A stretch of 64,000 nt of DNA. Origin: Podarcis vaucheri. Lineage: Eukaryota. Shown here piece after piece: positions 6,496 through 61,559 of this stretch. Location: NCBI GenBank assembly GCA_965113315.1, contig OZ220363.1; one strand, written 5' to 3'. Each line of letters starts with the position of its first letter. The stretch's first letter is position 1. Under the pieces are notes generated by a model. The model made no database searches and was not told the DNA's origin. It was given only the letters and a program-made list of their open reading frames with translations. A program made the translations under genes and the position numbers.

Positions 6496-6752
6496 TCAGT
6501 CCTCTGAATATTTTCCTCTCTTCTTCTTCTCTTGTAATTTATGCTCTTTGCCCTTTGTTTTGGTGCTCTCTAATTCAAGACTAAATAGTTTAGTTTTAAG
6601 TTTGCTTGCTCCTGTGGTTGATTGTCTTTGGTTCTGTGTCCCCAGTCGAGATAAGCGTCTGCATCTCATTCCCTGCTCTGTCATGGACTGCATGAGACAC
6701 TCCTGATTCTGGGTTACCATTTCCTCCCGACTCCAGACCAGAATATTAAAAC
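6496..6752 (-). CDS. DDB2: DDB2 last coding exon with basic C-terminal extension
   Basis: tggcag|GTTTTA...; [19 protein letters not shown]...SKLKTKL...[11 protein letters not shown], stop ending at 6496. Confidence 0.93.
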
Positions 6753-9700
6753 CTGCCAGAAAAAAAAGTGACAATTTTAGGAATTCTGCTTTGGAAAGCA
6801 AAATAAAAAGTACATTCTAAGAGCTCTGACCATCACCAGCGAAAATAAAGGAATTGTTCACATGATGCTGATACAAATGCTTTGCTCATATACTATGCAA
6901 AAGAATGAAACTTTACTATCTCTCCTCTTACCCCCATCTCTCTTCCCACTTTCTTTCCCGCCAAACCCCTATTGCCTGTAACAGTAATGTCTCACTCTGA
7001 ATGTGACTGGCCTGTATGAAGAAATATCTGACTTGAAAACAGAGACTCTCTATGTACTATTGTTACCCAAGTACATATTTTAAATGATGATGATAATAAT
7101 ACACCCAAGAGCTCAGACATTGTCTGCCAGACCTGTTTACTTCCCAGCTACTAAGGTTTAATGGAGTGATTGGCTTTTGATGTTAGATCTACAAAGTCTC
7201 ATTACAGGAACAGAATCCAAAGTAGTAGCTAATAATCGGGTATATCAGTAATTCATCTTTCCCAACACTTAACAGTACCTGTAAGTGAGACAGGTATGCC
7301 TGAGTATTTTTTTTATTTCATATTTTCAAACACCTCTTAACACTTTATAAACCTCTTTAACACTTAAGACAGTTTCTTAGTGGTTTATAAAATTGTGTGT
7401 GTGTATGTGCCCCTGCAATTATGTGTAGTATTTATATGGAGAGCGAGAGAGAGCAGACAAGGAAACTGAGAAACAACATTAAAATACAATACAATAAAAT
7501 CCCCCAAAACAAACACACAAAGTGGCAAATTATAAAAGCATCTTAAGAATCAATTATCCCTTCCCCCTTCCTTGACTCACAATATACAGCATTCATCTCA
7601 ATGACACACACACATTACATCCGAATTCTGTCTTACATCCACTCAAATCATACATCTGCTGCTCATTCAGTATCACTCATTCCATTCTATTCTCACACAT
7701 CCACCCGCTCACACACACAATCCACACACTAACTCCCACAGTATCTCCCACTCAGTCACTAGTCATCATCACCAATCACACTGTGCACTCAGCTAAAAAC
7801 GTACTGCAAAAACACCAGAAGACAATGAAGCTATAGCCTGACTGAATCGTAGAAAATAACAAAACTAACTGCAACCCATTAATCACACAGATTTACTGCT
7901 CCTAACAGCAATCTGCCTGTCACTCAGGTTGCTGCCTCCCACCCAAGATTCCCCCCACGCCTCCTTTCTTCTCGCCAAGGAATCCTGATACGCCATTTAC
8001 TTATCACCTGGTGTTTCTCCCCTGTCCCTTGCTCTCTTGCATGCCTTTATGATGTTGCCAAATTAACTCCAAGCAAGGAAGGGTCCACTTAAGATATGAA
8101 GCAGACTGCTGGAAACTAGCAAAAGTGTACAGGTTCAGTCCACAATCCTTGGTACAGACAAAGGCACTGGTATACTGGTACTGCTAAAAGGTTTATTTGT
8201 CCCAGGTGCTAGGTAAATTTACTTAAAGAATCCATATAACTGCCAAGGCTAATTTATTATGGGCCTTCTGTCTTTTGCATTACTGCCTAAAAGGCCACTA
8301 GATGGCAGCAGTACTCTCCTTTCAATAGACTGTTCCACCCTATCATTTCTAAGCTAAAGAACAAAGTAGTCAAGGGTCAAAATACCGTATTTTTCCGTGT
8401 ATAAGACGATGCTTTTTGTTGTTTTTTAAAAAAGGCAAAAATTGGGTGTCAGCTTATACATAGATAATGAATGCAGAGGGGGGACATGTGATTAATGGCA
8501 GCAGCAAGCAGGAGATTGGCAGCGGTGATTGGTGGTTGTGGCAAGGCCTGCTGGCGATTAGCTGCAGCAATTGGGCAGGCAATCAGTGGCTGTGGCGAGG
8601 CGGGTAGGCAATTGGCGGCTACAGCAAGTGGGCGGGTGGGCTGTTGGCGGCTGCGAGCAGGCAGACAATTGGCGGCTGCAGTGAGGTGTGTGATCGGCAG
8701 TGACTGTGGCAAGCGATCGGCAGTGGCGGGCAGGCGGGCGAACGATTGGCAGGAGTGACCTCCCCCACCCCCCAAAAAAGCTAAATAACTTAATTTCTTA
8801 ATTAAGTGTGTATCTGAAGAAGTGTGCATGCACACGAAAGCTCATACCAAGAACTAACTTAGTTGGTCTTTAAGGTGCTACTGGAAGGGATTTTTTTATT
8901 TTAATTGCTTAATTTTGGGTTAAAAAAAAATAGGGGTCGTCTTATACATGGGGGGCATCTTATACATGGAAAAATACGGTAGGTGTGACTGTGACAGCAA
9001 GAGATTGCATGTGGAAAGACACAAAACTGGCCCGTTCACATGCTAAGCAGGGACTGGTATCTTTAGCAGCAAAAGGATCCCACAGGAATGGGGTGATGAA
9101 CTCTCCTCAACCTCATATTTTCTCTGTTTCTGGCTTGCTTCTGGTAACAAAGCCAAGAAGGTGGCTGGAAGGTAAGGCATGGGAAAGGTTCTGCACCACT
9201 CGCTCTTGTGCTTTTATTGTTAAAGCACCACTCATTCTTCTGTGTATGTAAACAGTCTTAAAATACAACTTTTGTAGTTGTTGAGGAAAGGTAGGATAAA
9301 AATGTCCCAAATGAACATCTAGAAAGTGTTATAGGTATAGCCACAAAATCCCACCCCATTGTCAGCATGCTTTTATCTGGAGAGTGCCTGATTGCTTTTA
9401 TCTGGTGAGAACAGTGGTCCATTATCAAATGTGTAAGATTAAACCAACCACTCACCCATTCCAGAAGCCAGGGTGTCTCCCATAGGGTTAAACTTATTGA
9501 GCTGCAAATGTAAACACAATAATGCATTGTAACCACGTCGGTTGTTCACTTAACATCATCAATCAAATAAAAAACACCAGAACATTCTGGACAGAGAAAT
9601 GCCCAGCACTGGATGTGGAAAGAGTTTTGCACAAATCAGCAGAGCTTTGAATAGAAGGTCTCTCCATCTCCCACCTATCAGTCTATCACGAGATGCGTAT

Positions 9701-12700
9701 GGTGACAAGAAGCAAAGGATTAAAAAGATTTTTTAAAGCCTCCTGCAGAAAATTAACTGACAGATCTAACCAGGAGCCTCAGTAAGTGGCTCTCATGAAA
9801 TCTGGCTTAGGAAGAGGCAGCTCTGGCAACAGGAGATAAAACGTTTCTTCCACCACAAGAATGGAAATGAATCTCTGCCTCAGAAACTGCATGGGCGCAC
9901 AATTAAGATGGATTTTTTAAAAAAAAATCAGGGCTCTGATTTCAATTCTGAACATCTGGTGTGGAAATAAACAACTCAGGTATTCTTTCCCACAGCCCAC
10001 ACACCAAATGAATTGACATGAACTTTGTTTATTGAAGTTTGGAGACAGCTGTGCATCTCCTCATTTCTAGAGTTTAAGAAACGAAAGGCATGCCTCTGGA
10101 GGAAAGGGTGGGGCTATTACAGTAGTCTGTCCAGGCATTCAGTGGAAAGGCTGGAATTTGCAACATTGCAAATGGCTAGTTCAGCAGCTCTTTAAAAAAA
10201 GAACAGCTAAGAAAACCTAAAAAATACAAATGTCTCTGCTACAGTTCACAAACACATTCATCAGTGGCAACGACAAAAAACTGATTCTGATGATCTTGAC
10301 CCTGCAGAAAGTGGAAGGTGCCTCTTCCTCCCTGAGGTCTCCACACAATGTAGAAACTCTGACAGCTCTCACACTTCTTGCTGGTCAAGAGAGACACATC
10401 AAATGCATAGACACACAATCATAGAATTGTAGAGTTGGAAGGGACCACCAAGGTCATCTGTTCCAAGCCCCTGCAATGCAGGAATCTTTTGCCAAACATA
10501 GGGCTTGAACCCACCACCCTGAGATTAAGATTCTCCACCGACTGACCATACCTAAGTCATCCCACATGTACAGAAAACTCTGGGGTGGGGAAGGGGTCTC
10601 ATCTCTGACCTTACACCATGCTTTGGATGATTCAGTAGCAGCAAGAAGTCTTGTTGCTGCCAAAGATCTCCCAGGTGCAACATGGGGTCAGAAGTGAGAC
10701 ACAGAGGAAGGTCAGAGTAATGGAAACCACAGGTGCTGGCTACCAAGACAAGCTAAAATGTGTGAAGCCATGGCCACATCCAGTACAACAGAGCAGTCCA
10801 GGTTTCAGAGGATATCTCTCCATTAGGCACTAGTGGTCCTACCAAAAAGTGGTAACACAGGGCCTCCCCACCCAAGTGAACTCCTGCTGTGAATATGTCT
10901 GTCCTTAAAAAAGAGCTGTGTGAGCTATTCTTAAGGAGAAGCGCTGTATTGGAGGCAAACATTTGTCACAAGCAAACCCATCAATCAGTTGCACCATATA
11001 AGAAAAGAAATTATTATTTCCCTAACCCTCTCACTTTTGGGGGGCTGGGGCACAGTAGCTCTTTGGACATGCTATCTACACTTACCGAGATAATTCCAGA
11101 TGCATTTGGATCGTGCAGTTGGCACACCATCTCCCCACTGTTTCCATCAAATATGTCAATGGTTCTCAACTCGCCCACTGTGTAGCTTGGGAACCTAGGG
11201 TCTGGGTAACGACCCACCACAATGAGGTCATAGCGAGGATGCCATGTTGCCTAAAATAAAGAAGAGATGGTTAAGCTAGGTCAGTGCTAAACTGATATGT
11301 GTTACAGAGGACTAGGATGACGATGACGATGACAACAACAGTCTTATCAAGTGCTTATCAAGTGCTGGCGTTCTGTGGGTCATCCAGATTCAGCTCGTAC
11401 CCCTCACATGGGAGTAAACAAACTGCAGACCTTTCAAGGTATCATAATGTAGCAACATAATTTCCATAGGTTCTTACTAACCCTACCACTTGGAACTTGT
11501 GTACAAATCTAGGGAGATGTTCTGATTACAACTAAGTGCCACTGCCCTAGGATTCCTTCTGCCCAACCCTGCCACCAATAATGGTTGCTGTCACTGTAGA
11601 TTCCAGTCTAAGGTTGTATACTGGAATGCTTATTTATATAGATTCATAATCAGAAGCAGAATGAACCACTCTCCTCAATATCCTATACTTGAATCTATAC
11701 ATATAGAAAGAGCCTGTCCATAAGGCTCCCAGCAATTTTCCATACAGGAGTTGTAGGATGCTTTTCTTCTTAACTCTCTGCTCTCTGCATCAAATGGGTC
11801 ACGCTTCCAAGTCAACACTCCTATTTCTTCACCTTGATGGGTGTAAGGTGCTGGAACTGCCGATGGGGGTGTGAAATCAGATGCTGGGGTTTGGACCAAT
11901 CAGAAGAGGAATAGACCCGGATTTCATTGTACTGGTCAGTACTCAGTAGCTTAGCCCCATCCGTTGGGCTGAAATATGCTGGGGAGGAGGGGGAGAAAAC
12001 AGGAATATGTATAAATGTATGTAAATTTATAACAATAACAAAATAAATTATCAATGAAATATTATATTTATATATTATATTTGCAGCTATGATTACTATC
12101 TCACTATGCATATTATTACTATTATTAGTCCTGTAGAAGAATTATAATAAATGTGTAATTGTTGAGTGATGTCTCTTCTAAAACAAATAAGAGCAACATT
12201 TGAATATGTCCTAAACAGCACCAGTTAGAGACATAACTAGAATGTAATACGCAATCTTATCAGAGAACAAAATGCTGAATTTCCACCAAAATCAACCAAA
12301 CTATCTGCATAAATCCTTAAGTACCACTGATTTCAGTAGGTTATCGGTCTCTAAATTCAGTTTCCTTGGACTTAATTAAATAAATTCACACTGACTTCAC
12401 TTTTAGCTTTACCACACACTTTTTAAACAAGACTGAAAATGTGAAATGACAATTGCAGAATTTGGGGAGGCAGGGACTGGTTTAGAATTCAGTGATTTTG
12501 AAGTAACATTTAATATAAATCTTGAATATTGCACTTGGATATTTGAAATACATAGTGTGGCCTAAACATCTCAAGTTTTATTTGGAATCTTTTTCAGATG
12601 CCCAAATACTGATTGCAAGTAAATGGCCTAATCAAAGACCTCCTATGTTGAAGGATAGGGAAATTATTACTATGATTTGGAATTTGGCTGAAAGATGTGC

Positions 12701-15700
12701 ATTAAAGAGATGGTAAACAATTCTTGTTACACTTTATTTATGAACACAATTCAGACATTAAGAATAAGATTAAGAATAAGATTAAGATTAAGAATAAGTG
12801 TTGCATAATATATATTTTTAACATGGAAAATAATAACTAAGCCACCACCTCTATTCTTCTCTGTCGTTGTTTTTATCCTGTAGGGCTAACATTACTATTA
12901 AAACTTTGATTTAAATTTTAGCAAGTCTATAGACACACTCAGTATAGACACACTTCATCTTTTTGACAAGACATGTGAAACTATGACAGGAATAGGACTA
13001 GTGTTTGTTTTTTTCCACATATCTTCCAATTTCCTTCACAACTTAGGCCAAGGTTTGAAGGCACCTTATAATGTGCTTGTACAGTAGTACCTCGGGTTAC
13101 AGACGCTTCAGGTTACAGACTCCACTAACCCAGAAATACTACCTTGAGTTAAGAACTTTGCTTCAGGATGAGAACAGAAATCGTGTGGCAGCAGCAGGAG
13201 GCCCCATTAGCTAAAGGGGTACCTCAGGTTAAGAACAGTTTCAAGTTAAGAACGAATTAAGTTCTTAACCTGAGGTACCACTGTATCTCATTTTATCCAA
13301 ACAATCCTGTGAGGCAGCAGGACTGGCATTGACCTTTACAAGGCCAACAGCTGGTACAATGAATGCAAGGTTGAAAGACAAAGGCATGTGGCACTGACCT
13401 GAAGCACGCACAAGCCAAGAATGGTTAGGTGGCAGAGTATAAGCCATGAGCCACTTTGCTTTCTTACCTGCATTAACGGGTTTATCATGTGGAAGTACAT
13501 GAAGAGAACTTGACTTGTCCTTAATGTTTCTCAGATCCCATATCTTTACTGTCTGATCCACAGAGGCTGTAGCTAAGAGCCAATCACAGTGAGAATTGAA
13601 TTCCACGTGAGTTACTTTCTTTTTGTGCAGTTTCAGGTTCCATACCTGCAGTGGATAAAACAAAAGCCGAAATGCATTACAACTACAGAGCAAGAGATTT
13701 AGACATCAAACATACTTTTCTAGGAGATGGTAAAACCTCTTTAAAAAAAATAATGATATGGAAGACAGGAGAATATATGCTTGTATTTCTAAATCAGCCT
13801 AATAAAGACAATTCCAAAACTCTACCAGAGATCAAAGATTAATCTAAATAAGGAACTTCCAGGTTCTCCTCCTGGGGAATATGATCTCTGTAGTAAAGGG
13901 AACTTTTGGTTCTCCAGATGTTGTAATACTACAACTCCCGTAATCCTTGATCAGTGGCCTTGCTGGCTGGGACTGATAGGAGTCCAAAATCATCCATGAT
14001 ATATATTCTAAGTCAGGGCAACATTAGGCAGATGTTAAAAATACCAAAAACCTATGTATGTCTGATCAAAGCAGGCTGTAAGGCAAAGAGGAGGGGCACA
14101 CTAACCTTTTCGCCCTCAGTACTGAGCAGAACTACGTTGCCCACATTATCACCTGTCGCCACAGTCCGGCAAGTTGCAGATACATCAACACTGCAGTACC
14201 AGAAACTAAAAAAGAAAGAAGTACAAATTCAGAATGTTCACCCCCTAGATGTACAACTAAGGTGGTTCTCTGTTCTTAGCAGAATGCAAAAACAGTATTT
14301 ATATAAATAATGGAATCACAGCTGCGCTGAACTGAACCCTAGTGGCATTCTGATGTGGGATCAGTGTTGGATTATTTATCAAGTAGTGTAACAAACCCAA
14401 CAGGCATCACTTGGAAAAACCAAGCACACTCTTTAAAACATTCACAATGTGTATCGCATCAGTTCTAAGTATTTGAAATGAACACTAATTTTAAGTGTTG
14501 GAAAAGGGGTAGATAAGTTTGGACGTCATGAAACACAGGAACCCAAAGCTAGCCCAAGACACTTCACTGCCTAATGTATAGGTCAAGATGGCTCACTACC
14601 ATCACACACACACTCCCATTCCATGGATACAGAAGCTGAGCAGACTGGCAGATGACTCTTATTTTCAGCACTGGGGGTGCGACAGCATCCACCACACTTC
14701 AGAGCAACAGGCTAGCTTAGGGGGCAGGAAATAGGGGCAGAAGGCAGACCTTGTGGCACACACTGCTCTTATAGGGAAATAGTTTAGGAGCTCAGAAAGT
14801 AGAGCAACGGCCTTCTACTACTGCCCTAAAACATCTGCCAACATATTCTGCCCAATGGTAGGGTTCGCCCTGCAAGTGTGAGAGCCAAGTCACACTTTCT
14901 GTGGCAGATGAGATTGCTTCTTATCTTTCACATGCCTTCCAGTGAACCTCCAGAATGCTTGAAAAAGAAACCCAGATCTAAACAAGCATTAGAATTCTAT
15001 ACATTCCTCTTTCTTTGAGCATATTGCATGCTACCTCCCAATACTAACTCCCAAACATGAGGTGCAATTTATATCTTCAAAAAGTTTCCCTTCCTGTATT
15101 ACTTTGTTTTAATGGGAGACAAGCAGCTGATAAATGTTCCTGCTATATGAAAGCAGACCTTATTGGCTCTGATGCACAGTCACACTTGCTCAGTTCGGGA
15201 CAATTAGGCAGTGTAAAAATAAAACCCCAGAACCTGTCTTGTTCACTCTTCTTTGAGCATGCGTGACATGGTTAGAGTGCTGCAGTTTGTAGAATTCCTA
15301 CTGAAAAAGTTGTTTGCCTTCTCTATGTGTCAGGTGTGCTATACAGGGTATGCTATGCACCCAAGGAAAGAGGGATTTCCAGCATCTCAACACTCCATCA
15401 AGCAAAACACTACTCAAGTGCTCATGCCCACGAAAAAGCCAAACTACTTCCATTTGCTATTATGCACAACAGTAATCGTATTCCAATCCACATGATCAGA
15501 AACGTATTGCCTCCAATAGGCCCAGGGAAACAGCCCAAGCAAATGCTAATAATCTGTCCTGGCACATTCAAAGGAAGGGTAAAGGAAATTTATGAGCTGA
15601 ACAACGACACTGCCGTTCTGACTCCTCACCAAACATCATGGAATTCATGATCACAGACTGGGGTGCGGGAGATCACTTGCGCTGGTCGGCCCTCAAGGTG

Positions 15701-18700
15701 CTGTAGACTAAGGGTGCCATCCCCTGAAGCCACATAAAGATTTGCCGACTCAAATGGGCTGAATTTCATGCCTCCAAGAGAGTCTCCTGGGCCTTTCTGG
15801 AACACAGATGGGAAGAGGAGAGGAATATGCCTAAGTTACTGAGGAAGGGTGGGAATAGGCAGTCAGCACAACCTGGCAGAAATGCACTGAGTTCAGGCTC
15901 TAGGTGAATTCACACCTACCTACTTAATGCTGAACATTGCACCTTGTACAGTACTAGCTCTGAACTAGTTAACTTCTCAGATGTTGCATGCAAATTTCTT
16001 TCAGAAGTTCCACTTCAAAAATGTTGAGAAGCTATACAATATCCTCTTCAAAAGCACCAAGCAATTTAAAAAAAACACTAAGAGAGAAACATTAAGCCAT
16101 CTGTGTGCTAGTAGACTGGTTTATCAAGCTCCTTCTTGCGGAACTATTAGTATTGACTTTCTACTCTTACATTCTTTAACACTTCCAGTACCTATTTAAA
16201 CATAGAGCAAACAAAGAATTTTGCAGAGCTAGGATAATTCTGAGGACAACATATAACATTATGTCTCAAGTCACGACACACAACCTCTGTCTTTAAACAA
16301 GTATAGTACTAAATATTCCCAACTGTGTATAGAAAACGCAAATAAGTTCTGCACCTTTATGATAAAGCCAGGCAACTTCCCACATATTAAAAAGTTCTCT
16401 TCAGCTACATTAAGGTTCCTCTTGTTCCAACTAAAGGATGTGAATGTGGCAACTGCAACTTGATATCCCTCCACACAATTGAAAAACCAAGAATAAATTG
16501 AACACTAGGGCTTGCTGATCAGAAGGTTGGCAGTTCGAATCCCCATGACGGGGTGAACTCCCGTTGGTTGGTCCCTGCTCCTGCCAACCTAGCAGTTCGA
16601 AAGCGTGTCAAAGTGCAAGTAGATAAATAGGTACCACTCTGGTGGGAAGGTAAATGGCGTTTCCGTGCGCTGCTCTGGTTCGCCAGAAGCAGCTTAGTCA
16701 TGCTGGCCACATGACCCGGAAGCTGTACGCCGGCTCCCTCGGCCAGTAAAGTGAGATGAGCGCCATAACCCCAGAGTCGGCCATGACTGGATCTAATGGT
16801 CAGGGGTCCCTTTACCTTTACTATTCCATCCTATTGAACCTCAGCACTGAAATTGTCCATTATATATTTCTAGGAAGGTATTCGTTCACAACCTCTCTGC
16901 AGCTGCATCCAGTGCATTGTTTATTTTACTTCTCAACAACCATTGGATCTTCTGGAGATTCCATAGCGTAGAGGAAAACTAATCTAACTCCATCAATCTT
17001 CGCTTTGCTGCATCAAAATGTGAAGACTTCACACAAAAACTTATGTCACATTTATTCCTTTACACAAGGACCTCCATCTGTGGAGGAGTATAAAAATATT
17101 ACATGAGGATATCCAAGCATGTGTCTGTTTTGCTTCTGATATATGCTTCAGATAACTACTGTGAGAATCAGATTCCTGATGCCTGAATTAGGAGGAAAAT
17201 AAAACACTCATGCAACCAAACCTACATTCAGGTCGACACAGATAAAAGTTTATTCACACATTCTTCCCAAAGCTGGTGTTAATATCAGTATCAGGACAAA
17301 GTAACATCAAATAAAGTGCTCAATGAAGTTTCAAAAGATCCTAAGATAGCTTAAGAACAAAAAATGTGAAACTGGTAAGCATTCAAAATGAACCCAAAAA
17401 CAAGGGATATGGTATCACAAGATGCTGACAAAATAAGGATGAAAAAGAAGAAGAAAATAAATCCTAATGTATCTCAGTCTATTGTCATTGAAGGCTTTCC
17501 TCAAGTGTCAAAATAAAAAGCAGCCTAGAGATCTCTGTTAACAGCATCGCTTATTCACAGCTGGCAACACAGGTGGATGCCACAATATTCAACAGACCTA
17601 TTGCGGCAAGAAAGTTTGTGAAGAGCCCACTTCATCAGATGCACTTCTTAAAGGTGCTACAAGGCTCTTTTTTGTGTTTGCTCATAGTCCGAAACACTGG
17701 TGGCCCAGAATAAATGTAAATTGTAATATTGAATGTGTATGTTTCATTTGTAAATATAATTCAAACAAGCTTAGGAACACAATAAAATAATTTCCACTCC
17801 TTTGTCACGTGCACAGGGGAGTTCCCAAACTACCAATCCCCTACCACATTTCCAACACAAATTTGTTCTGTTATGGCTCTTTATCTATCTATTCATTACA
17901 GTATGTTTGTTATTGCGCAGGTATATGTCACATTTACAGACAGATCATGTACACTTAAGGCCATAAATTCAATCTGATGCATATTTGGGAAATATATCTC
18001 TGCCAAATGAGAAAGAACCCTTTAGGCAAAGAGATAGGCTTCTGCAAAATGATTCACTATGTTTTCCATAGCGATATCAAATTGTACACTGTTTTGCTCC
18101 ACATTGTTTTTTTACTTATGTAACCTGCCTTAAGGCCCAGTTTCAGGGGGCTAGAAGATAAAGTACATGATTAAAGCAAATAGTAGCGATTCAAGAAGAG
18201 CAAATCATTCACACTCTGAGTGAATAACTCTGGTAAGACCAGGGTGAGGGCCGACCCATGCCGAAATTGCACCACTTCCTCTGTTTTGTTGCCTTCTAAT
18301 ACTAGAAGCAGTGAGAGGTGGGAAAAACTTTTATCACATCTTACTCCCAGTTGTCGGTACTGGTGAAGACTCGAATTGTATTTCCATTAAAATCCCGCAG
18401 GGCAGTAGTTCCAGCAACTGATGAAGTGTACAGCTCACTAGGGTTAAAAGGGTTAAACTTCATTCCTGTGATGGCCCCTCCAGTTCTCATCTATAATGAA
18501 CGGGATGAATAAAAACAGAAAGCCACTCAGAGATGAGGAAGAAGGAAAGTCCCTCTTGTTATCTCATCTAACACCAGTACAAGGCAGCATTCATCTTTAT
18601 GTGGCATTAGCCAAGCTGAACAAATATCCTCATAGAGGAGAAGTTTCCTCTGGCCAATACCATTTCTGTTAAATAACTGCCATGTTGAAGAGCAAGCCTG

Positions 18701-19939
18701 CAGAACTCCTGGCACCGTCTACATCTTGAGTGGCTTGGCTCAGCTTCTTCTCAAGGTTGCCACCATGAACTAAACTGTTGAAAGTCACCTACTCAACCTC
18801 TTTACAAGAATGGGTTGTTCTGTGAACAGTTGCTAAAGGACTGAACCTAAGGGTACCAGAGGTGGGAGCAGGGAAAGGGATAAAGGATAAGACTGCAGAC
18901 AAGTAATGTCCCAATGGCGGGAGGGTACTATATATGAAGAGTTTCAGGAGCTCAATTTCAGGGCTGAATTATTACCTTCTTGTGAGGATTTGGGAGGATA
19001 AAATGCAACATGGAGGTGATGCCAGGAAAGCTGTTCTGGATGATAAACAACAGCTTGGGAACTCTGAAACTTCCATATTCATTGTTGCCATAATACTCGC
19101 CCTTATTTTTGTTTGATAAAGGTGCAAAGGAAAGTCCAATGTCATGTTTCTGCCCAGAGTATTCGTCTTAGGCTTTTGTGAGCTTTTCTTTGGAATGCCT
19201 AAGACGATATTATTTTAAAAAATATTTGCTTGAATACAGACAGATATACAAATTATAGCAGCTCAGTATCCTTGGAGAAGACTTGGAATTCTCAAGGAAG
19301 CTATTTTCTGCCTCTGGGTTTGCTCACCCTTTAGAAAAGATGAAGTTCACTCCACAGATAAACACAAGTGTATTTTGCCAAGGAATTATTAACAATTCAA
19401 AGCAAGGCCGATGGAAAATATTATTTCATTTGCGGGGACCTCATTCCTTCAACTCAATGAAGTACTTTCACATCTAACAAAGCATGAAGCTGAAGTAAAG
19501 AGTTAAGACAAATAAAAAACCTCTCCAAATATGTATGTATTTTCTATTTCAGAGTAAAAATTATCTAACTCAAATATATAGCCAGATCATTCCCTTGCAT
19601 AGAAAGCTGGGAAATTACAACACAGATTTATCCAGTGCAATGGAGTTCTAACTAGAAGCCTTCATCATTAATCTACATACCGCTCTAACACAGAGCTTGC
19701 ATAGACACTGCATTCGATCTTCACAATGACTTACCCCTTTTATGAAGCAGCTTTTATTAAGCATTTCATAGTCCCAAAGGATGATGTCTCCACCTTTGGA
19801 GCCCACAGCAACTGTGCTGGGGTGTGTTGGGTGCCATTCCAAGCATGTAACCCTCCTGTCAAAGGGACTTGCTGTGCGGAACAGGCGGTACGAATAGAGG
19901 GAACGTACAAAGGGCACCTGAAGACACTGTTACAAAGAC

Positions 19940-19979
<40 letters not shown>

Positions 19980-22900
19980 GCCCTGCAATTCCCATAAACT
20001 CAAGTCTGTGCTACTCTTCCAACTACTGTATACTGCTAACAGGTTCAACTGTGGACCATACTACACTACATGCATCCATATGTATCTTCCCTCTAATTTT
20101 CTTTTTTAACAAAAAACAACCTGTAGATCAGGTGTGGATCAGGAAGCTTTTTGGCCAGATCTTCATCTCCCCACACCCTGCAGGCTAACTTTGATAGGTG
20201 AGTCAATGAGCTGTCAATCAGCTGATGTCATAATGATGTCATAATGTTGTCAACATGCATTTCTGCATCTAGATGATGCAAGCTTCACCAGAGGTACAAC
20301 AAGAGGAGCTGTGGAACTCTTTATCTACTCGTTTTTTCTACTTTAAATTGTTCCCCTCCCCAGCTGGGTTTTCTCCAGAAATGATAAGGGGAAAAGGAAT
20401 ATGGTGAGAAGATAAGCAACACGACAATGAGAAATTATTATCCTGTCCATACAGGGGCAAGAGTGAAAAGAAATGGTACTATGCATTTCCAGAATTAAAG
20501 GCTTACATTTGATGTGGTGGAGCAAAGGAAAAGTTTGTAGATAGCCATGGTTTAGCGTTGCATCTCATCATAGCCTTAATGCTATGAGCCTGAGCAAAGC
20601 ACTACAGTCACAAACTCCCCCCTTCTCCTCACCGCCTCCTGCATGGCTAAATCAGCAGGATTTACTTTAGCTTTTAAAGAATCCCAGCTTAGTTACAATT
20701 GGACCAAGGATGTTGTTTTTATAGAAACTCCAGTTAGCCTATCAAAACAGGCCAGCTTCATAATCCATGGTTTCGAGTTGACTTGTTATGAAACTTACTA
20801 GAGTTTTGTTTTAAACCAGGATTCCTGGTTCAAAAATAATGCTAAGCCAATATACTTTAAAAGTGGAACTATACTCTGCCAGTATCCCTCTCCCAATTGC
20901 ACAGGAGGAGGTGGATGGAGAGTCAGTCTTTCTCAAGCTCATTCTAGCTAAACCATCATTTAGCATTATGTGCAAATGCAACCAGAGTGTCATGCAGTCA
21001 GGTGGATTTTTAAAAAGGAAAGATCTACACATGGCTGCATTATGCATACTATAGAGGAGGGAACATAAACATGGGTCAAACAGCCAATAATAAAAGAACT
21101 GTAACTCTTTTCTCCTCCACACTACTATGCAGAGTATGCATTTAGATAGAAATAGAAACTGCAGGAACCTCAGGTGTTCGGCCAGTTTGTAAGGAAAAAC
21201 ACCTACCTTTCTGAGCTGTGTCCCAATAGCACCACCCAGCATATTCTGATGTAGATAATGGACAATGTTCTTCTGTGTCTCTCGCTGATGGAAGAACACT
21301 CCTGTTTTTCTGACCATGGATCCATGGAAAGCTTCTCCTGCCAGACAAAAGCAAAAGTTATATTACTACCTACTTACATGCTCACTTAGGACAGATTTCA
21401 GGTTTTTTTTATAAAAAAAAATGGACACATACCCCAAACTGGAGCCAGGTGCAATGAAACAAAAAAAAATACTTTAAAACAAATTCTAATCAGTTTTCAA
21501 AACAAGCCACTTCAAATCATGAGTGATAAGGCTGGCTTGTTAAATTAACCAGAGCCTATTTTAAACTGCAGTCTCTGGTTTAATTGTAATAACAAGCCAG
21601 GATTCTGTGAAAGCAAAATAAAACACTGCTGAAGTCTCTTGCTGAACATGTTGAAGGAGGTAGGGCGTATACAAGCCCAAGTTTGGGTTGGACTGATTCC
21701 AGCTTCTTACACATTTAATGCTAAACTACTACATGCAAAGTACTCCACTGGGCTCAATGAGGCTTACTCTCTGGTTAAGTATGAATAGCATTGCAGGTTA
21801 ACTCTCACTACACTAGACTAGGAGCAGCAAACTTTGGCAACCACTGGTTAGGTGGGCGTATAATGTTGAGTGGTTTAAGTTTCTGAGCTACTCCAACTCT
21901 TCAGTTGGCTGGGTGTTAAGCAAAAAAAAACACCAAAATAGCAGAGGGCAATGAGAAGACTATGCAAGGAAATAACAATGGCTGCAACAGGCCTGAAAAA
22001 AACAGAGGCTGTATTTTGCCCCCTTTCTGAACTGAAATAGGTTAGCAGTCAGTATAGCTCTACCAGGTTAAAAATGAGCTAAAAACTAAGGTAGCTGGAG
22101 ACATCATTCTTAAAGCACAGTGGAAGAAAATAAATATCGGCCCAGTTTAGGATAAAAGCACAATATTCCAGATACTTCCAAAAGAATGAGTACATAAACC
22201 CCAGCCAAGCCCCCCGGAGTTCCTGCAGAAACAGAATATTCCAGGTTTGTTCTGTAGCCTACAGAAAATGTGCAGAGCTATTGGCAGGCTGTTCTCAACA
22301 AACAAACCTGCTGACTCTTCATGGAAAAGTCTAAAAACACTGTTGTCCAGGGAGAATTTTGCTGAGCAACTCAGCTTGGGATTTGTTTTCGAACATTGGT
22401 TCTGTGTTTTGTGTTTAATTACCAGAGGCATCTACAGCAACACAGAATCTGACTGCAACATATCTAATCACCCCCAAAGCAAAGGAATACGGCATATTGC
22501 AATTTCTTAGGAGTCAGACGACAACAGTCCTCATCATGAGGTAGAAGCAGATCAAATGAAACTCTTGAAACATGTATTTTTGCAAGGAAGGGTCCATAAT
22601 AAAACAAAAGTGTTTCCTTAGTCAACCAAAAGGTGAGAATATTAAGGATGCAACCCCCATTCAAATAACAGCAAAACTCCCCACTGATTTTAACTGGCCT
22701 GGTAATAGTAGCATGACATAAAATGTCATAGTAGCATACATAAAAGGGGGCACAAACAGAGGTGTTGAGTGCTCCCCCATCCCTGGCAAGTACTTTTCTT
22801 ATAGTCAGTCTTACTTTAAACCAGAGATTTCCAAACTGTGTGCTGTGACACCGTAGTGTGCACTTTGTAGGTGTGTCGCGTGAACACTTCCTGCACTCTT

Positions 22901-24965
22901 CCCGGAAAGGGTTTAACCTCTGGTTTCCTAGTAAAGCTGAATTACTGTGTTGCAAGTTGATGCATGCCTAAAAAGTGTGTCACCAACATGGAAAGTGGAA
23001 AGCTCTGCTTTAAACAGTGGAGCATGAGAGTGCCTGAAAAGGGTTTAAACATTCCACACTCTACTGGCCCTTTCCACCGCATGAATGGGGCAGACTCAGA
23101 TTTCAAAAGATGCAGTCTCATTATTGCCACATACAATATTGGGTCTCTGTCATTCCTCAGCTGGGAGACTCCTCATCAGAGGACAACCTGTAGACCCCAG
23201 CACTACTACAAGCCTGGGATCAGACTCATGCTGAGGTGAGGCCATCCACACCACAAGTGAGTTCAGCTTCTGGGGTTGTGTGTGCAAAGTCCTGAGTCTG
23301 GAGAAGAGATGGCACCTAAATGCTAGACAAGATCCACCTCAATAGAAGGGCCTGTCTGCAGACAAGCACTCCACAGGGGCCGATGAGACTTCTGGATGAA
23401 GGCAGCTGATAGGAGTCATCTGGATTTAGGGTGTGAGTCCAGCACTTCCAGCTCAAAAAAAAACCCCATACTTGGCTGGAAGAACTGCTGGAACAATGCT
23501 TTTGTGCCAGAACTGTGACAGATTTGGCTGACTGACTAGCCTAAGCCTGACCTCAGACCTGTCACCTGCCATGCCTTTGTTTGCCCATGGATTAAATTTG
23601 AAGATGACCTCAGACTATCCCGAGCTTGCCTCTCGCTAGGCTTCTTGTTTTAGGCCCTGATTACTTGGACCATAACCTTGGATACCACTTCTGCTTGTGC
23701 TCCTGTCAGTATTGCCTTAACCCTAATCCTGTTTCCTAAAGAATCTAGTGAGAGCAGTACAGCCCAATTTTGAACATGCATGTGTCCAATGCTTTTACAC
23801 TTCTAGCCTTATCTGCACTATTGAGAGACTTCTAATGTCAAAAGACTTTTAACACAGAGAGTTATATTTGGACCTGCTTATATCATGAAGATTATTTCTT
23901 TAAGAGGCTTTATTTTCTAACATTTTTCGGGTTGTACAAAGCTTCATCTTCTTTTTAAAGCCAGTGCAGTTTTTTGAACAACACTCGTAAAATAACATTC
24001 AAACAAAAACTAAGTGAAGTGTTAAAATAAGTCCATAAAGGGAGATATGGAAAAGATAGATTAAAGTGCTTTTACCAGATAAATTGGAAAGGCAAAATAT
24101 ACTGGACTGCTGAATGGGATAAATAAGTCTCAAGGAAAGTTGACCAAATGTTCCTGTACTTGTCTTTGTGTTCACATCAATGCATTACTAGTTCAAATAA
24201 GGAAAGGGAGTGTAAATCATTCATTCACTGTTGTATGGAAAGGAACAGCTTCTCCTTCCAGCACTGAAGCACCATTCATTTCTCTGACCCTGGAGCACAC
24301 ATGACTCAGGGCCCAGTGGTAAATTCCAAATAGCAGGAATGCAATTGTAAAACATGCATATATCTGAAATATAATGAAGTTTGCAGGACCAAATTAAATA
24401 ATTACCAGAACTCAAAAAGTGTTACAACTGAGCAGCCCCACATGAAGCGACAAAGAATTTGATTTCTGCTTCACATTGCTGTACAAAGCAAACTTTTAAA
24501 ACTCTCCCAATTTTACTATGTGGGGATTAAATTACCTTTGTTAGTTAAGTGGCAAACCACCAAAACAAACTGCATTTAGAGCTGATTTCATTATTACTAT
24601 TTTGGCCTAGAGAGAAGCAAAAGGCTTGCAGGAAAAATGACAGGGGAAAAGATTAAATATGAAGAGATCAAATTACATGTACCCATGGTCTGTTAGCAAT
24701 AGCAACTATCAGAACAAACAATACCAACAGAATCAAATTGCATTAGCATTACATTGACACATATGAGAAATGTATGTTTTAAGGCCTTACCCATTTTCTC
24801 CAGAATCTTGGGGGCTTTTTTCACAAGTAATTTATTTGCATATGGCTCATTTTCCAGCTCTCTGGTGTCTCGCTTCCTTTTCCCAGTTGTTTTTGCCTCT
24901 TTTTCTGATGGACACTCAGGAGACTTTTGTAGTTTCTTGTCCCTTGACTGCTTCCCAGGGGCCAT
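6496..24965 (-). CDS. DDB2: DNA damage-binding protein 2 (XPE; WD40 substrate receptor of CRL4-DDB1); 10 coding exons with two alternative exon 4s; 511 aa (4A) or 518 aa (4B)
   Basis: Exons 24965-24791, 21337-21207, 19926-19735, [18490-18345 or 15796-15630], 14205-14106, 13645-13468, 11978-11833, 11250-11086, 9501-9456, 6752-6496. All GT-AG with consistent phases. Hallmarks [38 protein letters not shown] (FQH hairpin), [15 protein letters not shown]. Confidence 0.97.
8293..8311 (+). promoter_or_regulatory. CTCF core motif
   Basis: GGCCACTAGATGGCAGCAG matches CCASYAGRKGGCRS; lies in the last DDB2 intron. Confidence 0.55.
8385..8979. mobile_element. Non-autonomous Tc1/mariner-superfamily element with internal GC-rich tandem repeats and a nested Penelope-like fragment
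   Basis: TA|CCGTATTTTTCCGTGTATAAGA...TCTTATACATGGAAAAATACGG|TA terminal inverted repeats; internal degenerate GCAATTGGCGGCTGC units about 8490-8755. Confidence 0.8.
8805..8886 (+). mobile_element. Penelope-like terminal fragment containing a minimal type I hammerhead motif
   Basis: GTAT-CTGAAGA-A-GTGTG-CATG-CACAC-GAAA-GC-TC-ATAC then TAGTTGGTCTTTAAGGTGCTAC, similar to the terminus of the Penelope remnant at 32.2 kb (GTCTTTAAGGTGCCA on the minus strand). Confidence 0.65.
9456..9501 (-). CDS. DDB2: DDB2 coding exon 9 (46 bp)
   Basis: ttgcag|CTCAAT...ATGG|gtgagt; [15 protein letters not shown](G). Confidence 0.94.
10417..10550 (-). mobile_element. tRNA-Lys-derived SINE with CR1-derived 3' tail
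   Basis: Minus strand reads TCAGTCGGTGGAG..TCTTAATCTCAGGGTGGTGGGTTCAAGCCC (tRNA-Lys-CTT-like), then GATTCCTGCATTGCAGGGG...CCCTTCCAACTCTACAATTCTATGATT, matching the CR1 tail at 4682-4757. Confidence 0.75.
11086..11250 (-). CDS. DDB2: DDB2 coding exon 8 (165 bp)
   Basis: ttttag|GCAACA...ATCTCG|gtaagt; [55 protein letters not shown]. Confidence 0.96.
11833..11978 (-). CDS. DDB2: DDB2 coding exon 7 (146 bp; FQH lesion-probing hairpin)
   Basis: ccccag|CATATT...ATCAAG|gtgaag; [48 protein letters not shown]. Confidence 0.96.
12480..12730 (+). mobile_element. Degenerate L1-like ORF2 C-terminal fragment
   Basis: Peptide AQILIASKW....PP......IWNLAE resembles the end of non-mammalian L1 ORF2 and the fragment at 62 kb. 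Confidence 0.4.
12758..12798. repeat. (TAAGAA/TAAGAT)n hexamer microsatellite
   Basis: Direct reading. Confidence 0.85.
13082..13283. mobile_element. Tigger/pogo-like MITE, family A copy 1
   Basis: TA|CAGTAGTACCTCGGGTTA...TAACCTGAGGTACCACTG|TA; closely similar to 48790-49016. Confidence 0.85.
13468..13645 (-). CDS. DDB2: DDB2 coding exon 6 (178 bp)
   Basis: ctgcag|GTATGG...GCAG|gtaaga; [59 protein letters not shown]. Confidence 0.96.
14106..14205 (-). CDS. DDB2: DDB2 coding exon 5 (100 bp)
   Basis: ttttag|TTTCTG...GAAAAG|gttagt; [33 protein letters not shown]. Confidence 0.95.
15630..15796 (-). CDS. DDB2: DDB2 alternative coding exon 4B (167 bp, phase 0->2)
   Basis: ttccag|AAAGGC...GTTTG|gtgagg; open frame [55 protein letters not shown](C); resembles the recalled chicken DDB2 peptide. 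Confidence 0.88.
16505..16821 (+). mobile_element. Sauria SINE, 5'-truncated, in the intron between DDB2 exons 4A and 4B
   Basis: B-box AGTTCGAATCC, body GCAAGTAGATAAATAGGTACC, tail CCCTTTACCTTTAC; homologous to 45252-45615. Confidence 0.88.
18345..18490 (-). CDS. DDB2: DDB2 alternative coding exon 4A (146 bp, phase 0->2)
   Basis: ttatag|ATGAGA...TGGGA|gtaaga; open frame [48 protein letters not shown](D); resembles the recalled human/zebrafish exon-4 peptide. Confidence 0.88.
19735..19926 (-). CDS. DDB2: DDB2 coding exon 3 (192 bp)
   Basis: taacag|TGTCTT...AAAGGG|gtaagt; [64 protein letters not shown]. Confidence 0.96.
19943..19976. repeat. (GA)17 microsatellite; reads (TC)n just upstream of the DDB2 exon 3 acceptor
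   Basis: Direct reading. Confidence 0.9.
21207..21337 (-). CDS. DDB2: DDB2 coding exon 2 (131 bp; start of DDB1-binding helix-loop-helix)
   Basis: tggcag|GAGAAG...AGAAAG|gtaggt; [43 protein letters not shown]. Confidence 0.9.
24791..24965 (-). CDS. DDB2: DDB2 first coding exon (exon starts at 24977 with 12 nt of 5'UTR)
   Basis: ctttctcag|TGATTTACCAGA ATG GCC...; [11 protein letters not shown]...GKRKR...APKILEKM(G)|gtaagg; basic N-terminal tail. Confidence 0.88.
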
Positions 24966-25340: not shown

Positions 25341-27099
25341 ACTTTCCTTTCTGCAGGATCCAACAACCCCCTCAGTCAATTTCATTTTTCCCCAGAAACT
25401 AAGGATTGCTCGCTTAGTACTGTATAGGTATTATTCTCCCTTCCCTTGATCTTAAGAGGATAAGAGCAAGGAATATCAGAAAACAATGAATTGCCATGAA
25501 ATTGCCATAATTGAAGTTGTTCAATCTCTGAAACATCAGACGTTAGTAATTGACTGGATGAGGGCAAAACAGACTGAAGCTTAATCCAGACAAGACAGAG
25601 ATTCGGAACAGATAAAGTACGTCATTATGCAGCGCAGTTAAACCATGCAATCAACCTCCATAAAATAATATTCTTGTGTACAGTCTATAGATATTTTAAC
25701 TTGAAGCAGTCAAAAGCTGTTTAATTATTCTACAGTTGCATTTCACAATTATTATTTTTTTGAATTATTATTAAATTTATTACCTGCCCTTCATCAACAG
25801 CTCCCAGAGTGGGTTACAACAATTTAAAATTCAGTGTTAAAAACAGGTCAAACAAATAGTCACAGGAAAAGGTTGGTAACTTGAAACACACACACATCTC
25901 AGATGCCAAATGCTAGGGTAAATAAACAACAGCCCAGTAATGAGAAGCAGACCGGTAGTGGTTGTAAGCAGGGGGAGATGAAAAATCAGAGTGGGGTGGG
26001 ACTGCGTTCATATCAATTATTCTCAGCAGGAATAAAACCTCATTTAATTTTGAATAAAGCATACTAAAACGAACTGACTATATATTATTCTGTAAAGGCA
26101 ACATGCCTGGGGGGTGAAATAATGTGAAATAGCAAAAACACTTTGACAAACATACTCCAGTATCCTCAATCCAGCTTCTCCTGTTTTTCCCCCCTGCTGC
26201 TCTGAGGGGCTTCTCCCAAGTCCCAAGTGGGGAGGAGGAGGTCATCATTCATTCGTCTGATTGCTTAGGGACAGTCCTTAACAATGGTACTGCCTGCGGA
26301 GTGCCAAAGCATTGAAGCTACCTCCATGTTTTGTGCCCTAACTTTCTTCAGGAATGGTCAAGTGGTTTACTTTTTTATAAAAAATGAAAGTGAAAAATTG
26401 GGAGCGGGTTTCCTGCTGGTCTTGGGTCCCCCAAATCCTACTCCTTTTACCCATCTGTTAGCGGTCCTGGGTCAACCTGTATTCAAAAGGCACTGGAAGC
26501 AAATGTAGCCAATGGTTTCTAGACAAATTATGCCACTTCCTGCTCTTTCCAAATACATTTATAATAGTTTCCTAATGGCCATATGATATTTAATGACAAA
26601 GCAACTTATGTTACCACATGTTTATTATCAAGATAGATAAGTAGAAGGAGTTGTGGCATAGCTAGTGTGTGGCAGTGTGTATTTGAATATGAGACCCTCA
26701 GAACAAAATCCCTGTTTAACACCTTGTGCTGTCAGTGTCCTTAATAATAATAACAATGATGATACTTTGGGGCATTATTCAGTGGCTAAAAAGCTCCCCT
26801 TTCATGCTGACGGGGCAGCTGTAGGACGCTGGAGACAGGGACCTTCCTGCATGCAAAAAAAATTAACGGGTCTTCGACCCCTGCAACCCTGAAATACTAC
26901 ACCACTGATCTTAACACATAAAATATTTTCACCAGTCTGGAGCAATAGCTAAGTGCAATGATCAGAAAAGAAAGGAATAAATTCAAGAAACCATCGTAGA
27001 AGGAAATACTGCAGGGGGGCTACTCCTCCTCTCTCTCCCTCAAATACAGCACGTGAAACAACTTTCCGTTTTATGTAAGTTGAATATTATTAGCATACC

Positions 27100-27780
27100 A
27101 GAGGCGGGCCAAATAGTACAAGGCTGCCTAAATAGACCCGCCCGCCCTCCCCGCCCTGGACCAAAACGGAAAAAGCCCACCGCCTTTCAGGCGTGAGGGA
27201 ACTTTGAAATAAGGTTGGGGGCAGCAAGGCGGAGCCTGAAGCAAAGAAGGAGGTCCTTGGCGTCAGATAGCGAGAAGCAGGGAATGCAAGCGAAGGGGAG
27301 GGCTGTGTATCCTCCGAGGGGGGAAAAGCGCCTCCCGAGCGCGGGAGCTTCCGCCACAAGTTGCAAGGGGTGCAAAGGGAAAGCGGTAGCCAAGGGCGCC
27401 CCCTCACCTGAACTCCCTTGACCGCACGCTCCTTGCTAACGAGGCGGCTGAGGAGTGGGTGGACAAAAGGCGCGGGAAGAAGGAGCCGCCTCCTCGCCGG
27501 TTTCATAACCTGAGGGGGGGGGTAAAGGAAGGAAGGAAGGAGGGAACCGAGAAGAGCTTTACGCGGGAAATTAGTCGGGTTCCGGCGTGGCTTCGGAGTG
27601 GGAACCGTGTGGCTGGCAAGCGAGCAGGCAGCCTCCCTCGGCTGGGCGCTTTCTCTTTCCTCTCGCCGGAAGGAGGCGCCACGAAATGGTCTGCAGCTGC
27701 ACCGAGAAAGAGCTCTCCCCGCGGCCTTATGTTTACGTATAACCTAAACAAAGCTATAGCTTAGGGCCGCACTCTCTTAG
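27100..27780 (-). promoter_or_regulatory. CpG-island promoter of DDB2 with GC boxes, E2F-like and ETS-like sites
   Basis: High GC/CpG relative to the AT-rich flanks. CCCGCCC boxes near 27137-27156, TTTCCCGC on the minus strand at 27563-27570, CCGGAAG near 27666. Confidence 0.75.
27408..27510 (-). other. DDB2: Putative non-coding first exon of DDB2 (TSS approximate)
   Basis: Strong minus-strand donor CAG|GTGAG at 27408/27407 inside the CpG island. The ATG exon has an acceptor 12 nt upstream of the ATG, implying an upstream exon. Confidence 0.55.
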
Positions 27781-33625: not shown

Positions 33626-34549
33626 TAATGAGGTATTTTAATGAGATCTAAACAGAGAGATACCTTAATGGGGGCCACTAGCCTTTGTCTGAGTCAGTTA
33701 TCTGGAGTCTGAGTTATTATCTGTTGTTTTTCTGAAACAGATGGAGCAACATAAACTAAGTGTGGTGACTTTAAAGGCTGTTGCACAAGTTACGTTTTAG
33801 GTGACAGTGATATGCATTTAGGATTACATCCTACTGAGTTTAATAGAACATGTTTCAGAGTAATCATTTTTAGGACTGGGATACATGACTGAAGTTGTAT
33901 TTTTTCCATTCTGAAAACTTAGCATCTATGTTCCAAAATGTGTAATACCTATAACATACTGCAGGGAAGTTCCAGTTGCCATCGATGTTCAGCAACTTGT
34001 TTTCCTGATGCAATGTGTGTGCAGTCTTTTCACTTATCACCATGTAACCAACCAATGGTTCTCACCCATATGTGATTAGGAAAAAAATGTCCAGGGTGTA
34101 AGCTCCAGATAGAAAGTAGTTCTGGCAAGTTTTATTTTAGAAACTGAGACTCTATGTGGGCAGTAGCCTTCTTCCACCTAACAAAACAATAGTAATAAAT
34201 CCAAACCTATACCCTTTGCAATAACAGAAGTTCTAGATTGTTAAGGCTAGCATAAACAGAAAGTAGACTGGAAAAGGAAAATGTTCCCATGCATGTAATG
34301 CAAAACCTTGTCTCAAATGTTGAGTCATAGCTAAACTGGTTTAAGGAAGGTGGAGAATGCAGCTCCACTTTTCAAAGATCCCAAAGGCTGTAAAAGGTAG
34401 GAACTGAAAACTGGAGGTGGTGTTAAAAAGAGAGAAGGGGAAGAGAAAATGGGTTGTTAAAAACAAAACAAAAAACCCTGAACCAAATTAGGGGATGAGG
34501 GAAAGGAGAAACTTGGCAATAAGAACATGTCTTTTACTGCATCAATAAG

Positions 34550-34685
34550 CAGTGGTTTTTTTTCTGGGGCGCCGCAGGGGTACACACACCCCTAAACACT
34601 TTGTGAATCTAGGTTTGGCCTCATTGAGGGGCAGTATTTCAATATGAGTAGGAAAATGAGAGTACCCCTAAAGAAAAAAGCACTG
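34550..34685. mobile_element. hAT-type MITE with perfect 8-bp TSD
   Basis: TCAATAAG|CAGTGGTTTTTTT...AAAAAAGCACTG|TCAATAAG. Confidence 0.85.
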
Positions 34686-34742
34686 TCAATAAGGCATCTT
34701 TTTAAGCATAGTAAGACACCATGGCCTTCAGAAAGGGTGAGT

Positions 34743-34878: not shown

Positions 34879-34999
34879 TAAGACTTCTGGTTTCTCTTCA
34901 GACAAACATCTCAGTGCTCTGTTCCTGGAAGCCAACAAACTGGCTGTTTGTGCCCAAGGGAGAAGTGGGGCAGCAGAAAAGGTGAGTTGGCTGTTCTAA

Positions 35000-55253: not shown

Positions 55254-61559
<6,306 letters not shown>

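What the first reader, a model, noticed from the sequence alone, without database searches (positions are those of the whole stretch)
15630..15796. Exon 4B rewrites predicted lesion-pocket residues and adds a C-x-H-x2-H-x2-C loop
Seen: relative to 4A, 4B changes SSVAG to ASGDG, replaces TDNW(D) with [10 protein letters not shown](C), and is 7 aa longer. This places Cys/His/His/Cys directly before FWYC of exon 5. Recalled from DDB2-DNA crystal structures (zebrafish numbering, from memory): the pocket for flipped-out photolesion bases involves G192, I213/R214, W236 and W239; the first four map to exon 4. 4A keeps the W236 equivalent and 4B does not. Inference: the isoforms may differ in preference for 6-4PP, CPD or abasic sites, and the 4B loop may bind Zn or act as a redox sensor.
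Basis: partly seen in the sequence, partly recalled or inferred. Interest (0 to 1): 0.7.

Follow-up and report, generated by a model that had tools for sequence, protein, structure and literature searches.

The report
Ancient swappable zinc-loop exon in DDB2
The UV-damage sensor gene DDB2 of this lizard carries two either-or versions of exon 4, both spliced in RNA of close relatives and both shared with fishes, and the version not seen in mammals replaces part of the damage-binding pocket with a conserved Cys-His-His-Cys loop that likely binds zinc and would change how the sensor grips UV lesions.

Summary
15796-15630 (minus strand) is exon 4B of a lacertid DDB2, a tandem duplicate of exon 4A (18490-18345). 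Only one fits the frame. RNA of related lacertids shows all four either-or junctions; 4B leads, 37 against 5 reads into exon 5. The duplication predates the ray-fin/lobe-fin split. Zebrafish has 4B too, but the solved structures are 4A-type. C-x-H-x2-H-x2-C is kept in 115 of 123 distinct 4B segments while its spacers vary. It replaces zebrafish W236-D237, human I200-N201, which touch CPD but not 6-4PP or abasic sites (PMC12606344). One-zinc closure is geometrically possible; zinc binding and lesion preference are untested. Corrections: W236 is also absent from human and cichlid 4A; R214 is not conserved; the Asp of ASGDG is ancestral and the Gly is the novelty. No 4B model was seen in mammals, frogs, caecilians or crocodilians. 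Both isoforms are already database gene models; my searches found no paper on them. The scan noted a separate either-or DDB2 exon in an annelid (e1-9713064), not this one.

The parts
15630..15796 (-). DDB2 exon 4B, 167 nt, alternative to 4A; residues 167-221 of isoform X1 plus two bases of Cys222
   Evidence: spliced on both sides
15630..15655 (-). C-x-H-x2-H-x2-C loop: Cys214 15655-15653, His216 15649-15647, His219 15640-15638, Cys222 = 15631-15630 plus 14205
   Evidence: codons; conservation; geometry
15716..15730 (-). ASGDG turn (residues 189-193); Gly191 stands at zebrafish Ile213, Asp192 at Arg214
   Evidence: Gly191 in 120 of 123 distinct 4B segments
15785..15793 (-). Gly168-Pro169-Gly170, equal to human G154-A155-G156 and zebrafish G190-P191-G192; kept in 4B
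18345..18490 (-). DDB2 exon 4A, 146 nt, the type found in all solved structures and in the mammalian proteins seen; carries Trp214 (zebrafish W236)
   Evidence: spliced
19735..19926 (-). exon 3; its phase-0 donor joins either 4A or 4B
   Evidence: acceptor read from the sequence printed
14106..14205 (-). exon 5, 100 nt; first base completes Asp (4A) or Cys (4B); encodes Trp224 (zebrafish W239, human W203)
13468..13645 (-). exon 6, 178 nt
6499..24965 (-). coding span of DDB2: ten coding exons plus the alternative exon 4; limits of exons 1, 2 and 7-10 are approximate
   Evidence: tblastn of P0002 and P0021 on the window

Best explanation
DDB2 here has two mutually exclusive tandem copies of exon 4 that arose before ray-finned and lobe-finned fishes split, and the 4B copy, the commoner one in the lacertid RNA read, builds a DDB2 whose nine-residue Cys-His-His-Cys loop likely closes on one zinc ion at the wall of the lesion pocket and would retune, not abolish, damage binding. 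Shown: exon structure, frame constraint, splicing of both exons, age, conservation, and the position of the loop by alignment to solved structures. Inferred: the loop is a small zinc knuckle that buds out in place of Trp214-Asp215 of 4A (zebrafish W236-D237, human I200-N201); Gly191 replaces Ile213 to make room for it; transcripts with both or neither exon are removed by nonsense-mediated decay. Predicted and untested: the isoforms differ mainly on CPD, because the replaced residues touch CPD but lie away from 6-4PP and abasic sites in human structures. My odds: either-or exons 0.97, metal binding 0.7, a measurable change in lesion preference 0.45.
For: Frames: 3-4A-5 and 3-4B-5 open; both exons give a stop at codon 58, neither at codon 6. 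Raw reads of a related lacertid, 4 runs of 2 studies, 6-12% of each read: 4B-5 junction 37 reads, 4A-5 5 reads, 3-4B 20 reads. Contigs of 4 runs: 3-4A in 4 of 4, 3-4B in 3 of 4, 4B-5 in 4 of 4, 4A-5 in 1 of 4. No 4A-4B joint among the rows shown (3 and 7 rows were not shown). Tree without the loop columns, 11 species with both exons: A|B split 100/100; separate duplications in lobe-fins and ray-fins rejected, p-AU 1.2e-9. Motif in 115 of 123 distinct 4B segments chosen blind to the loop; C214 96%, H216 98%, H219 95%, C222 98%, against 56-80% for the spacers. Gly191 is changed in only 3 segments, and all 3 have a damaged loop (P0115, P0116, P0242). AlphaFold model of 4B: same propeller as 4A08_B (Z 52.7, 1.2 A over 339 residues), loop pLDDT 78, helical turn at 219-222. 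All four ligands can close on one tetrahedral zinc with allowed angles and no clashes, ends about 6.5 A apart. The FQH wedge, HKKKV and Trp224 lie in shared exons. PMC12606344 (passage): I200 and N201 contact CPD methyls and lie away from 6-4PP and abasic lesions.
Against: No measurement of zinc or DNA binding was made or found. The geometry test shows only that closure is possible: it used a 9-residue stand-in peptide, its 278 solutions descend from at most 72 parents, and it has no control motif. The same spacing is the core of RING-H2 domains, where the ligands serve two cross-braced zinc ions (PMC6969932, passage). W236 varies among working 4A proteins, so the pocket tolerates change there. 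PMC4264169 (passage) says the 6-4PP bases point outward with no hydrogen bonds, so a changed wall may matter little. Joint loss of Gly191 and ligands is 2 independent events and may be decay of the whole exon. Conservation counts are inflated by many related teleosts and birds. The RNA comes from relatives, tissues unknown, with few reads, and 21 of the 37 and all 5 of the 4A reads come from one run.
Confidence: 0.5

Rival explanations
1. The loop binds zinc but faces outward: 4A and 4B grip lesions alike, and the knuckle is a docking surface for a partner (XPC hand-over, histones or a remodeller).
For: The pocket is shallow and W236 is replaceable; G168-x-G170 and W224 are kept. Small zinc motifs often bind proteins (established knowledge).
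Against: The loop replaces the residues that touch CPD in 9J8W, and the neighbouring pocket residue Ile213 becomes a near-invariant Gly. Spacer residues, which would form a docking face, are variable.
Confidence: 0.2
2. The four residues are two half-sites, as in the RING-H2 core (C-x-H and H-x2-C), completed by ligands from another DDB2, a partner or DNA phosphate.
For: The spacing fits the RING consensus Cys-X(1-3)-His-X(2-3)-Cys/His-X2-Cys with two cross-braced zinc ions (PMC6969932, passage). A UV-DDB dimer is named in the titles of 4E54 and 4E5Z.
Against: P0002 has no C-x2-C pair to complete either site; no Pfam family matched 4B; single-site closure is feasible; no constitutive Cys/His tracks the presence of 4B, apart from C226 to Thr in three marsupials.
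Confidence: 0.12
3. The loop is a redox switch: oxidation of Cys214/Cys222 ejects the metal or forms a disulfide and changes DDB2 activity under oxidative stress.
For: Two conserved Cys on a surface loop. Zebrafish ddb2 expression rises under oxidative stress (review PMC10014602, passage; isoform not stated). Zinc-thiolate switches are known in Hsp33 and ZAS anti-sigma factors (recalled).
Against: Nothing here tests it. The two His are as conserved as the Cys, which a plain disulfide would not need. The expression data concern transcription, not the protein. It can be true together with the best explanation.
Confidence: 0.12
4. 4B makes a binding-dead or decoy DDB2 that only dampens the 4A form.
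For: It loses two hydrophobic pocket residues (I213, W236). Inhibitory human DDB2 splice forms are recalled, not checked.
Against: 4B is the commoner form in the reads; all 7 full or near-full sturgeon and paddlefish proteins seen, and the chicken Swiss-Prot entry Q5ZJL7, are 4B; the fold and the other DNA contacts are kept.
Confidence: 0.06

Closest known systems
Zebrafish and human DDB2 of UV-DDB (PDB 3EI1, 4A08, 4A09, 3EI4, 6R8Y, 9J8W)
   Same: Same gene and seven-bladed propeller (Z 52.7, 1.2 A); wedge FQH, W239 and G190-x-G192 kept.
   Different: All solved chains found are 4A-type. 4B has Gly at I213 and a 9-residue Cys/His loop in place of W236-D237. Zebrafish itself has a 4B model (P0387, isoform X1, 503 aa).
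Tandem duplicated exon substitutions (PMC9741552, abstract and supplement search; PMC8373072, supplement search)
   Same: Two homologous, ancient, either-or exons giving near-equal-length isoforms.
   Different: DDB2 is absent from both human tables (0 hits; TPM1 control found). The abstract says most such changes are conservative and keep functional residues; here pocket residues change and a motif is added.
RING-H2 core C-x-H-x2-H-x2-C (PMC6969932, passage)
   Same: Identical ligand order and spacing.
   Different: No flanking C-x2-C pairs, no Pfam RING match; it sits in a WD40 loop; resemblance is probably convergent (inference).
Owenia DDB2 either-or exons at the FQH wedge (scan note e1-9713064, unchecked)
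   Same: DDB2 lesion-contact surface varied by tandem exon choice.
   Different: A different exon, an independent event, no Cys/His loop reported.

Membership tests
DDB2 (XPE) orthologue | Sequence and fold closest to DDB2 among solved structures | tested here: met
   the top 11 fold matches are DDB2
DDB2 (XPE) orthologue | FQH wedge and basic DNA-binding residues present | tested here: met
   (FQH at 356, HKKKV at 262, SKGGD at 145)
DDB2 (XPE) orthologue | 4B isoform binds UV lesions | not testable with these tools
   needs a binding assay
Mutually exclusive tandem duplicated exons | Two adjacent homologous exons with the same splice phases | tested here: met
   146 and 167 nt, both 2 mod 3; 16 of the first 45 residues identical without gaps
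Mutually exclusive tandem duplicated exons | Each exon spliced to both flanking exons in RNA | tested here: met
   (related lacertids)
Mutually exclusive tandem duplicated exons | No joint inclusion | tested here: inconclusive
   no 4A-4B joint among rows shown, but 3 and 7 rows were hidden and depth is low; joint inclusion gives a stop
Mutually exclusive tandem duplicated exons | A dedicated exclusion device (short intron or RNA pairing) | tested here: inconclusive
   intron is 2548 nt with an ordinary acceptor; inverted repeats not above chance
RING-H2 domain | Central C-x(1-3)-H-x(2-3)-H-x2-C | tested here: met
RING-H2 domain | Two flanking C-x2-C pairs completing a cross-brace | tested here: not met
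   no C-x2-C in P0002
Mononuclear structural zinc site | Four conserved Cys/His ligands with variable spacers | tested here: met
Mononuclear structural zinc site | Ligands converge in tetrahedral geometry in the protein | tested here: inconclusive
   feasible for a stand-in peptide; not measured on the model
Mononuclear structural zinc site | One zinc per chain | not testable with these tools
   needs ICP-MS or EXAFS

The most novel reading that the evidence does not exclude
The main DDB2 of many fishes, salamanders, lizards, turtles and birds is a zinc-knuckle form never crystallised, whose metal loop is the wall of the CPD pocket; splicing switches lesion specificity, and mammals kept only the zinc-free form on which all current models of UV-damage recognition rest.
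Probability: 0.3. Interest if true: 0.85.

Novelty: new variant of a known kind. Interest (0 to 1): 0.68.

Why it matters
DDB2 is the first sensor of UV lesions in chromatin, and poor CPD recognition is the defect of XP-E cells. Its mechanism is known from 4A-type proteins only. A second pocket, kept from fishes to birds and the commoner form in the lizard RNA read here, is a natural experiment on what sets CPD against 6-4PP preference. It also means that zebrafish and chicken work on DDB2 may concern a different isoform from the crystallised one. Zebrafish has both exons, so exon-specific knockouts and side-by-side binding assays can be done at once.

Tried and rejected
RNA pairing as the exclusion device: 30 inverted pairs, one with 13 perfect bases between 4B and the intron before 4A, but 95 of 200 shuffles give such a match; rejected. 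Steric exclusion: intron 2548 nt, ordinary acceptor; not supported. The His residues as WD40 tetrad His: by the recalled WD40 consensus that place is Val221 and blade 3 lacks the partner Asp and Trp; rejected by inference. Recent or lizard-specific duplication: rejected. 4B loop as the ancestral state: 1 of 96 alignable distant representatives has the motif and it is a goby; amphioxus, starfish, nemertean and abalone have short loops. Pfam gave nothing for 4B; ESM Atlas best 0.80, a lead at chance level. The first zinc-geometry script made only 8 starts and was uninformative. Partner residues co-varying with 4B: none convincing. Sharks and lampreys: none among the rows listed; those word-based searches miss known 4B proteins (one search missed amniotes), so this is no evidence. 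No indexed holder was on record as RNA. Literature searches (listings only) showed no paper on these exons; subscription papers are not covered. Scrima 2008 and Yeh 2012 were not held. One supplement of PMC4494069 could not be searched.
Full report
Observation. The window holds a DDB2 gene on the minus strand, coding span about 24965-6499. Between exon 3 (donor at 19735) and exon 5 (14205-14106) lie two homologous exons: 4A at 18490-18345 (146 nt) and 4B at 15796-15630 (167 nt), each with AG and GT ends. 4B is 7 residues longer, SSVAG becomes ASGDG, and DNWD becomes [11 protein letters not shown] after a shared Thr; the last Cys codon is split by the intron. 4B is identical to the same stretch of Podarcis muralis isoform X1 (P0002); isoform X2 (P0021) carries 4A. 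4B has one match in the window's genome.

Splicing. Both exons are 2 mod 3. With both, a stop comes at codon 58; with neither, at codon 6. Decay of such transcripts is inferred. Raw RNA reads of a related lacertid (4 runs, 2 studies, 6-12% of each run read) gave 37 reads across 4B-5 (10, 21, 6, 0), 5 across 4A-5 (one run) and 20 across 3-4B. Contigs of 4 further runs, guessed to be RNA, showed 3-4A in 4, 3-4B in 3, 4B-5 in 4 and 4A-5 in 1. No 4A-4B joint was among the rows shown; 3 and 7 rows were hidden. So both exons are used, and 4B leads in these samples of unknown tissue. I found no exclusion device.

Age and spread. Gene models with 4B were returned for lizards, tuatara, turtles, birds, salamanders, lungfish, sturgeons, gar and many teleosts, zebrafish included. 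For 11 species with both exons, a tree built without the loop splits A from B at 100/100 and rejects separate duplications in lobe-fins and ray-fins (p-AU 1.2e-9). A larger tree with four invertebrate rows keeps B together at 94/93 but cannot place the root. The split is about 430 million years old (recalled). Among 150 distant representatives, 96 aligned over the region and 1, a goby, has the motif, so the loop is a vertebrate gain. Only 4A was seen in 20 frog proteins (one, P0164, broken at the exon end), 7 caecilian, 10 crocodilian and 5 monotreme or marsupial proteins, and DDB2 is missing from two tables of human tandem-exon events. These are gene models reached mostly with a 4A query, so the losses are likely but not shown. 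Sharks and lampreys are open.

Conservation. Of 323 proteins examined, 172 have a 4B core, chosen on the first 42 residues and so blind to the loop; they give 123 distinct segments, of which 115 keep C-x-H-x2-H-x2-C. The ligand columns are 95-98% constant and the spacers 56-80%. Five of the 8 exceptions look like truncated or mis-spliced models (my reading). Three are substitutions: a hornbill, an anchovy 'DDB2-like' copy and a Sinocyclocheilus copy. A second hornbill (P0116) passes only in a shifted register. Alignment A1 (32 of 32 invariant) was hand-picked and left these out. Gly191 is kept in 120 of 123, and its three changes all fall in damaged loops. Related teleosts and birds inflate all counts.

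Position. One offset maps the 3EI1 chain to P191 and W236. PMC4264169 (passages) names P191, I213, W236 and W239 as the shallow pocket. PMC12606344 (passages) names human G154, A155, G156, I200, N201 and W203 as CPD contacts, and says I200 and N201 lie away from 6-4PP and abasic lesions. By alignment 4B keeps G154-x-G156 and W203, turns I213 into Gly, and puts Cys214-Cys222 in place of W236-D237 (human I200-N201). Asp at that place is the common state in distant DDB2 (62 of 96), while 213 is mostly I, V, L or M (70 of 96).

Structure. The AlphaFold model of 4B has pTM 0.69, pLDDT 78 over 211-220 and a helical turn at 219-222; the 4A model has 88 over the same block. The 4B model matches 4A08_B at Z 52.7 and 1.2 A. 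I could not read coordinates, so loop direction and ligand geometry were not measured. A torsion sampling of a 9-residue stand-in found clash-free closure of all four ligands on one zinc, with ends about 6.5 A apart; this shows possibility only. The spacing is that of the RING-H2 core, which serves two zinc ions (PMC6969932, passage), but DDB2 has no C-x2-C pair to complete such sites and Pfam finds nothing on 4B.

Mechanism. Most likely 4B is a working lesion sensor with a one-zinc knuckle as the pocket wall, Gly191 making room for it, and differing from 4A mainly on CPD. The exon switch is shown; the metal site is inferred from conservation; the change of preference is a prediction. Rivals are a docking surface, split half-sites, a redox switch and a decoy.

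Novelty. Both isoforms stand in RefSeq and UniProt, and the chicken Swiss-Prot entry is 4B. Searches (listings read, plus passages of PMC4713717, PMC12606344, PMC4264169, PMC3166285, PMC6969932, PMC10014602 and PMC7502198, the abstract of PMC9741552, and supplement searches of PMC4494069, PMC9741552 and PMC8373072) showed no description of the exon pair or the motif; subscription papers were not covered. The scan has no note on this exon and one on a different either-or DDB2 exon in an annelid. Verdict: a real, ancient and apparently undescribed variant of a known kind; interest 0.68.

Noticed in passing
window 18487-18482 (-), exon 4A: Lacertid 4A begins MRTGG: Arg at human G154, a CPD contact; only 2 of 47 4A proteins have it (Podarcis, Lacerta). 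The minor 4A form may be drifting or altered in this family.
   Followed up: partly
window 16505-16821: High-copy element in the intron between 4A and 4B; thousands of unrelated reads pile on it. Probably a squamate SINE (recalled); a similar-looking stretch lies near 45282-45721.
   Followed up: no
P0115, P0116, P0242, P0442: 4B decays in two hornbills and an anchovy 'DDB2-like' copy (Gly191 lost with the loop); Sinocyclocheilus anshuiensis, a cave fish (recalled), has His219 to Gln.
   Followed up: partly
P0321, P0331, P0336, P0347, P0368, P0378: These distant DDB2-like proteins (P0321 is from the plant Mikania; the others are unnamed) carry their own long NPxGW-type insert in the same loop, several with a small residue at 213: a possible parallel to 4B without Cys/His.
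   Followed up: no
P0113, P0114, P0118, P0120, P0121: Turtle, Pogona and bird models skip exons 4 and 5 together, which keeps the frame (146+100 or 167+100 nt) and removes the pocket.
   Followed up: no
P0001, P0100, P0148, P0170: Several automatic gene models include both 4A and 4B through false splice sites; they confirm the order 4A then 4B in turtle, bird, bonefish and eel.
   Followed up: partly
window 57521-59444 (+): Exons with a weak F-BAR match (PF00611, E 0.003); likely PACSIN3, the neighbour of DDB2 in human (recalled).
   Followed up: no
window 34000-38000 and 27090-27764: GC-rich stretches (0.51-0.54 at 34-38 kb) upstream of DDB2, probably promoter islands.
   Followed up: no
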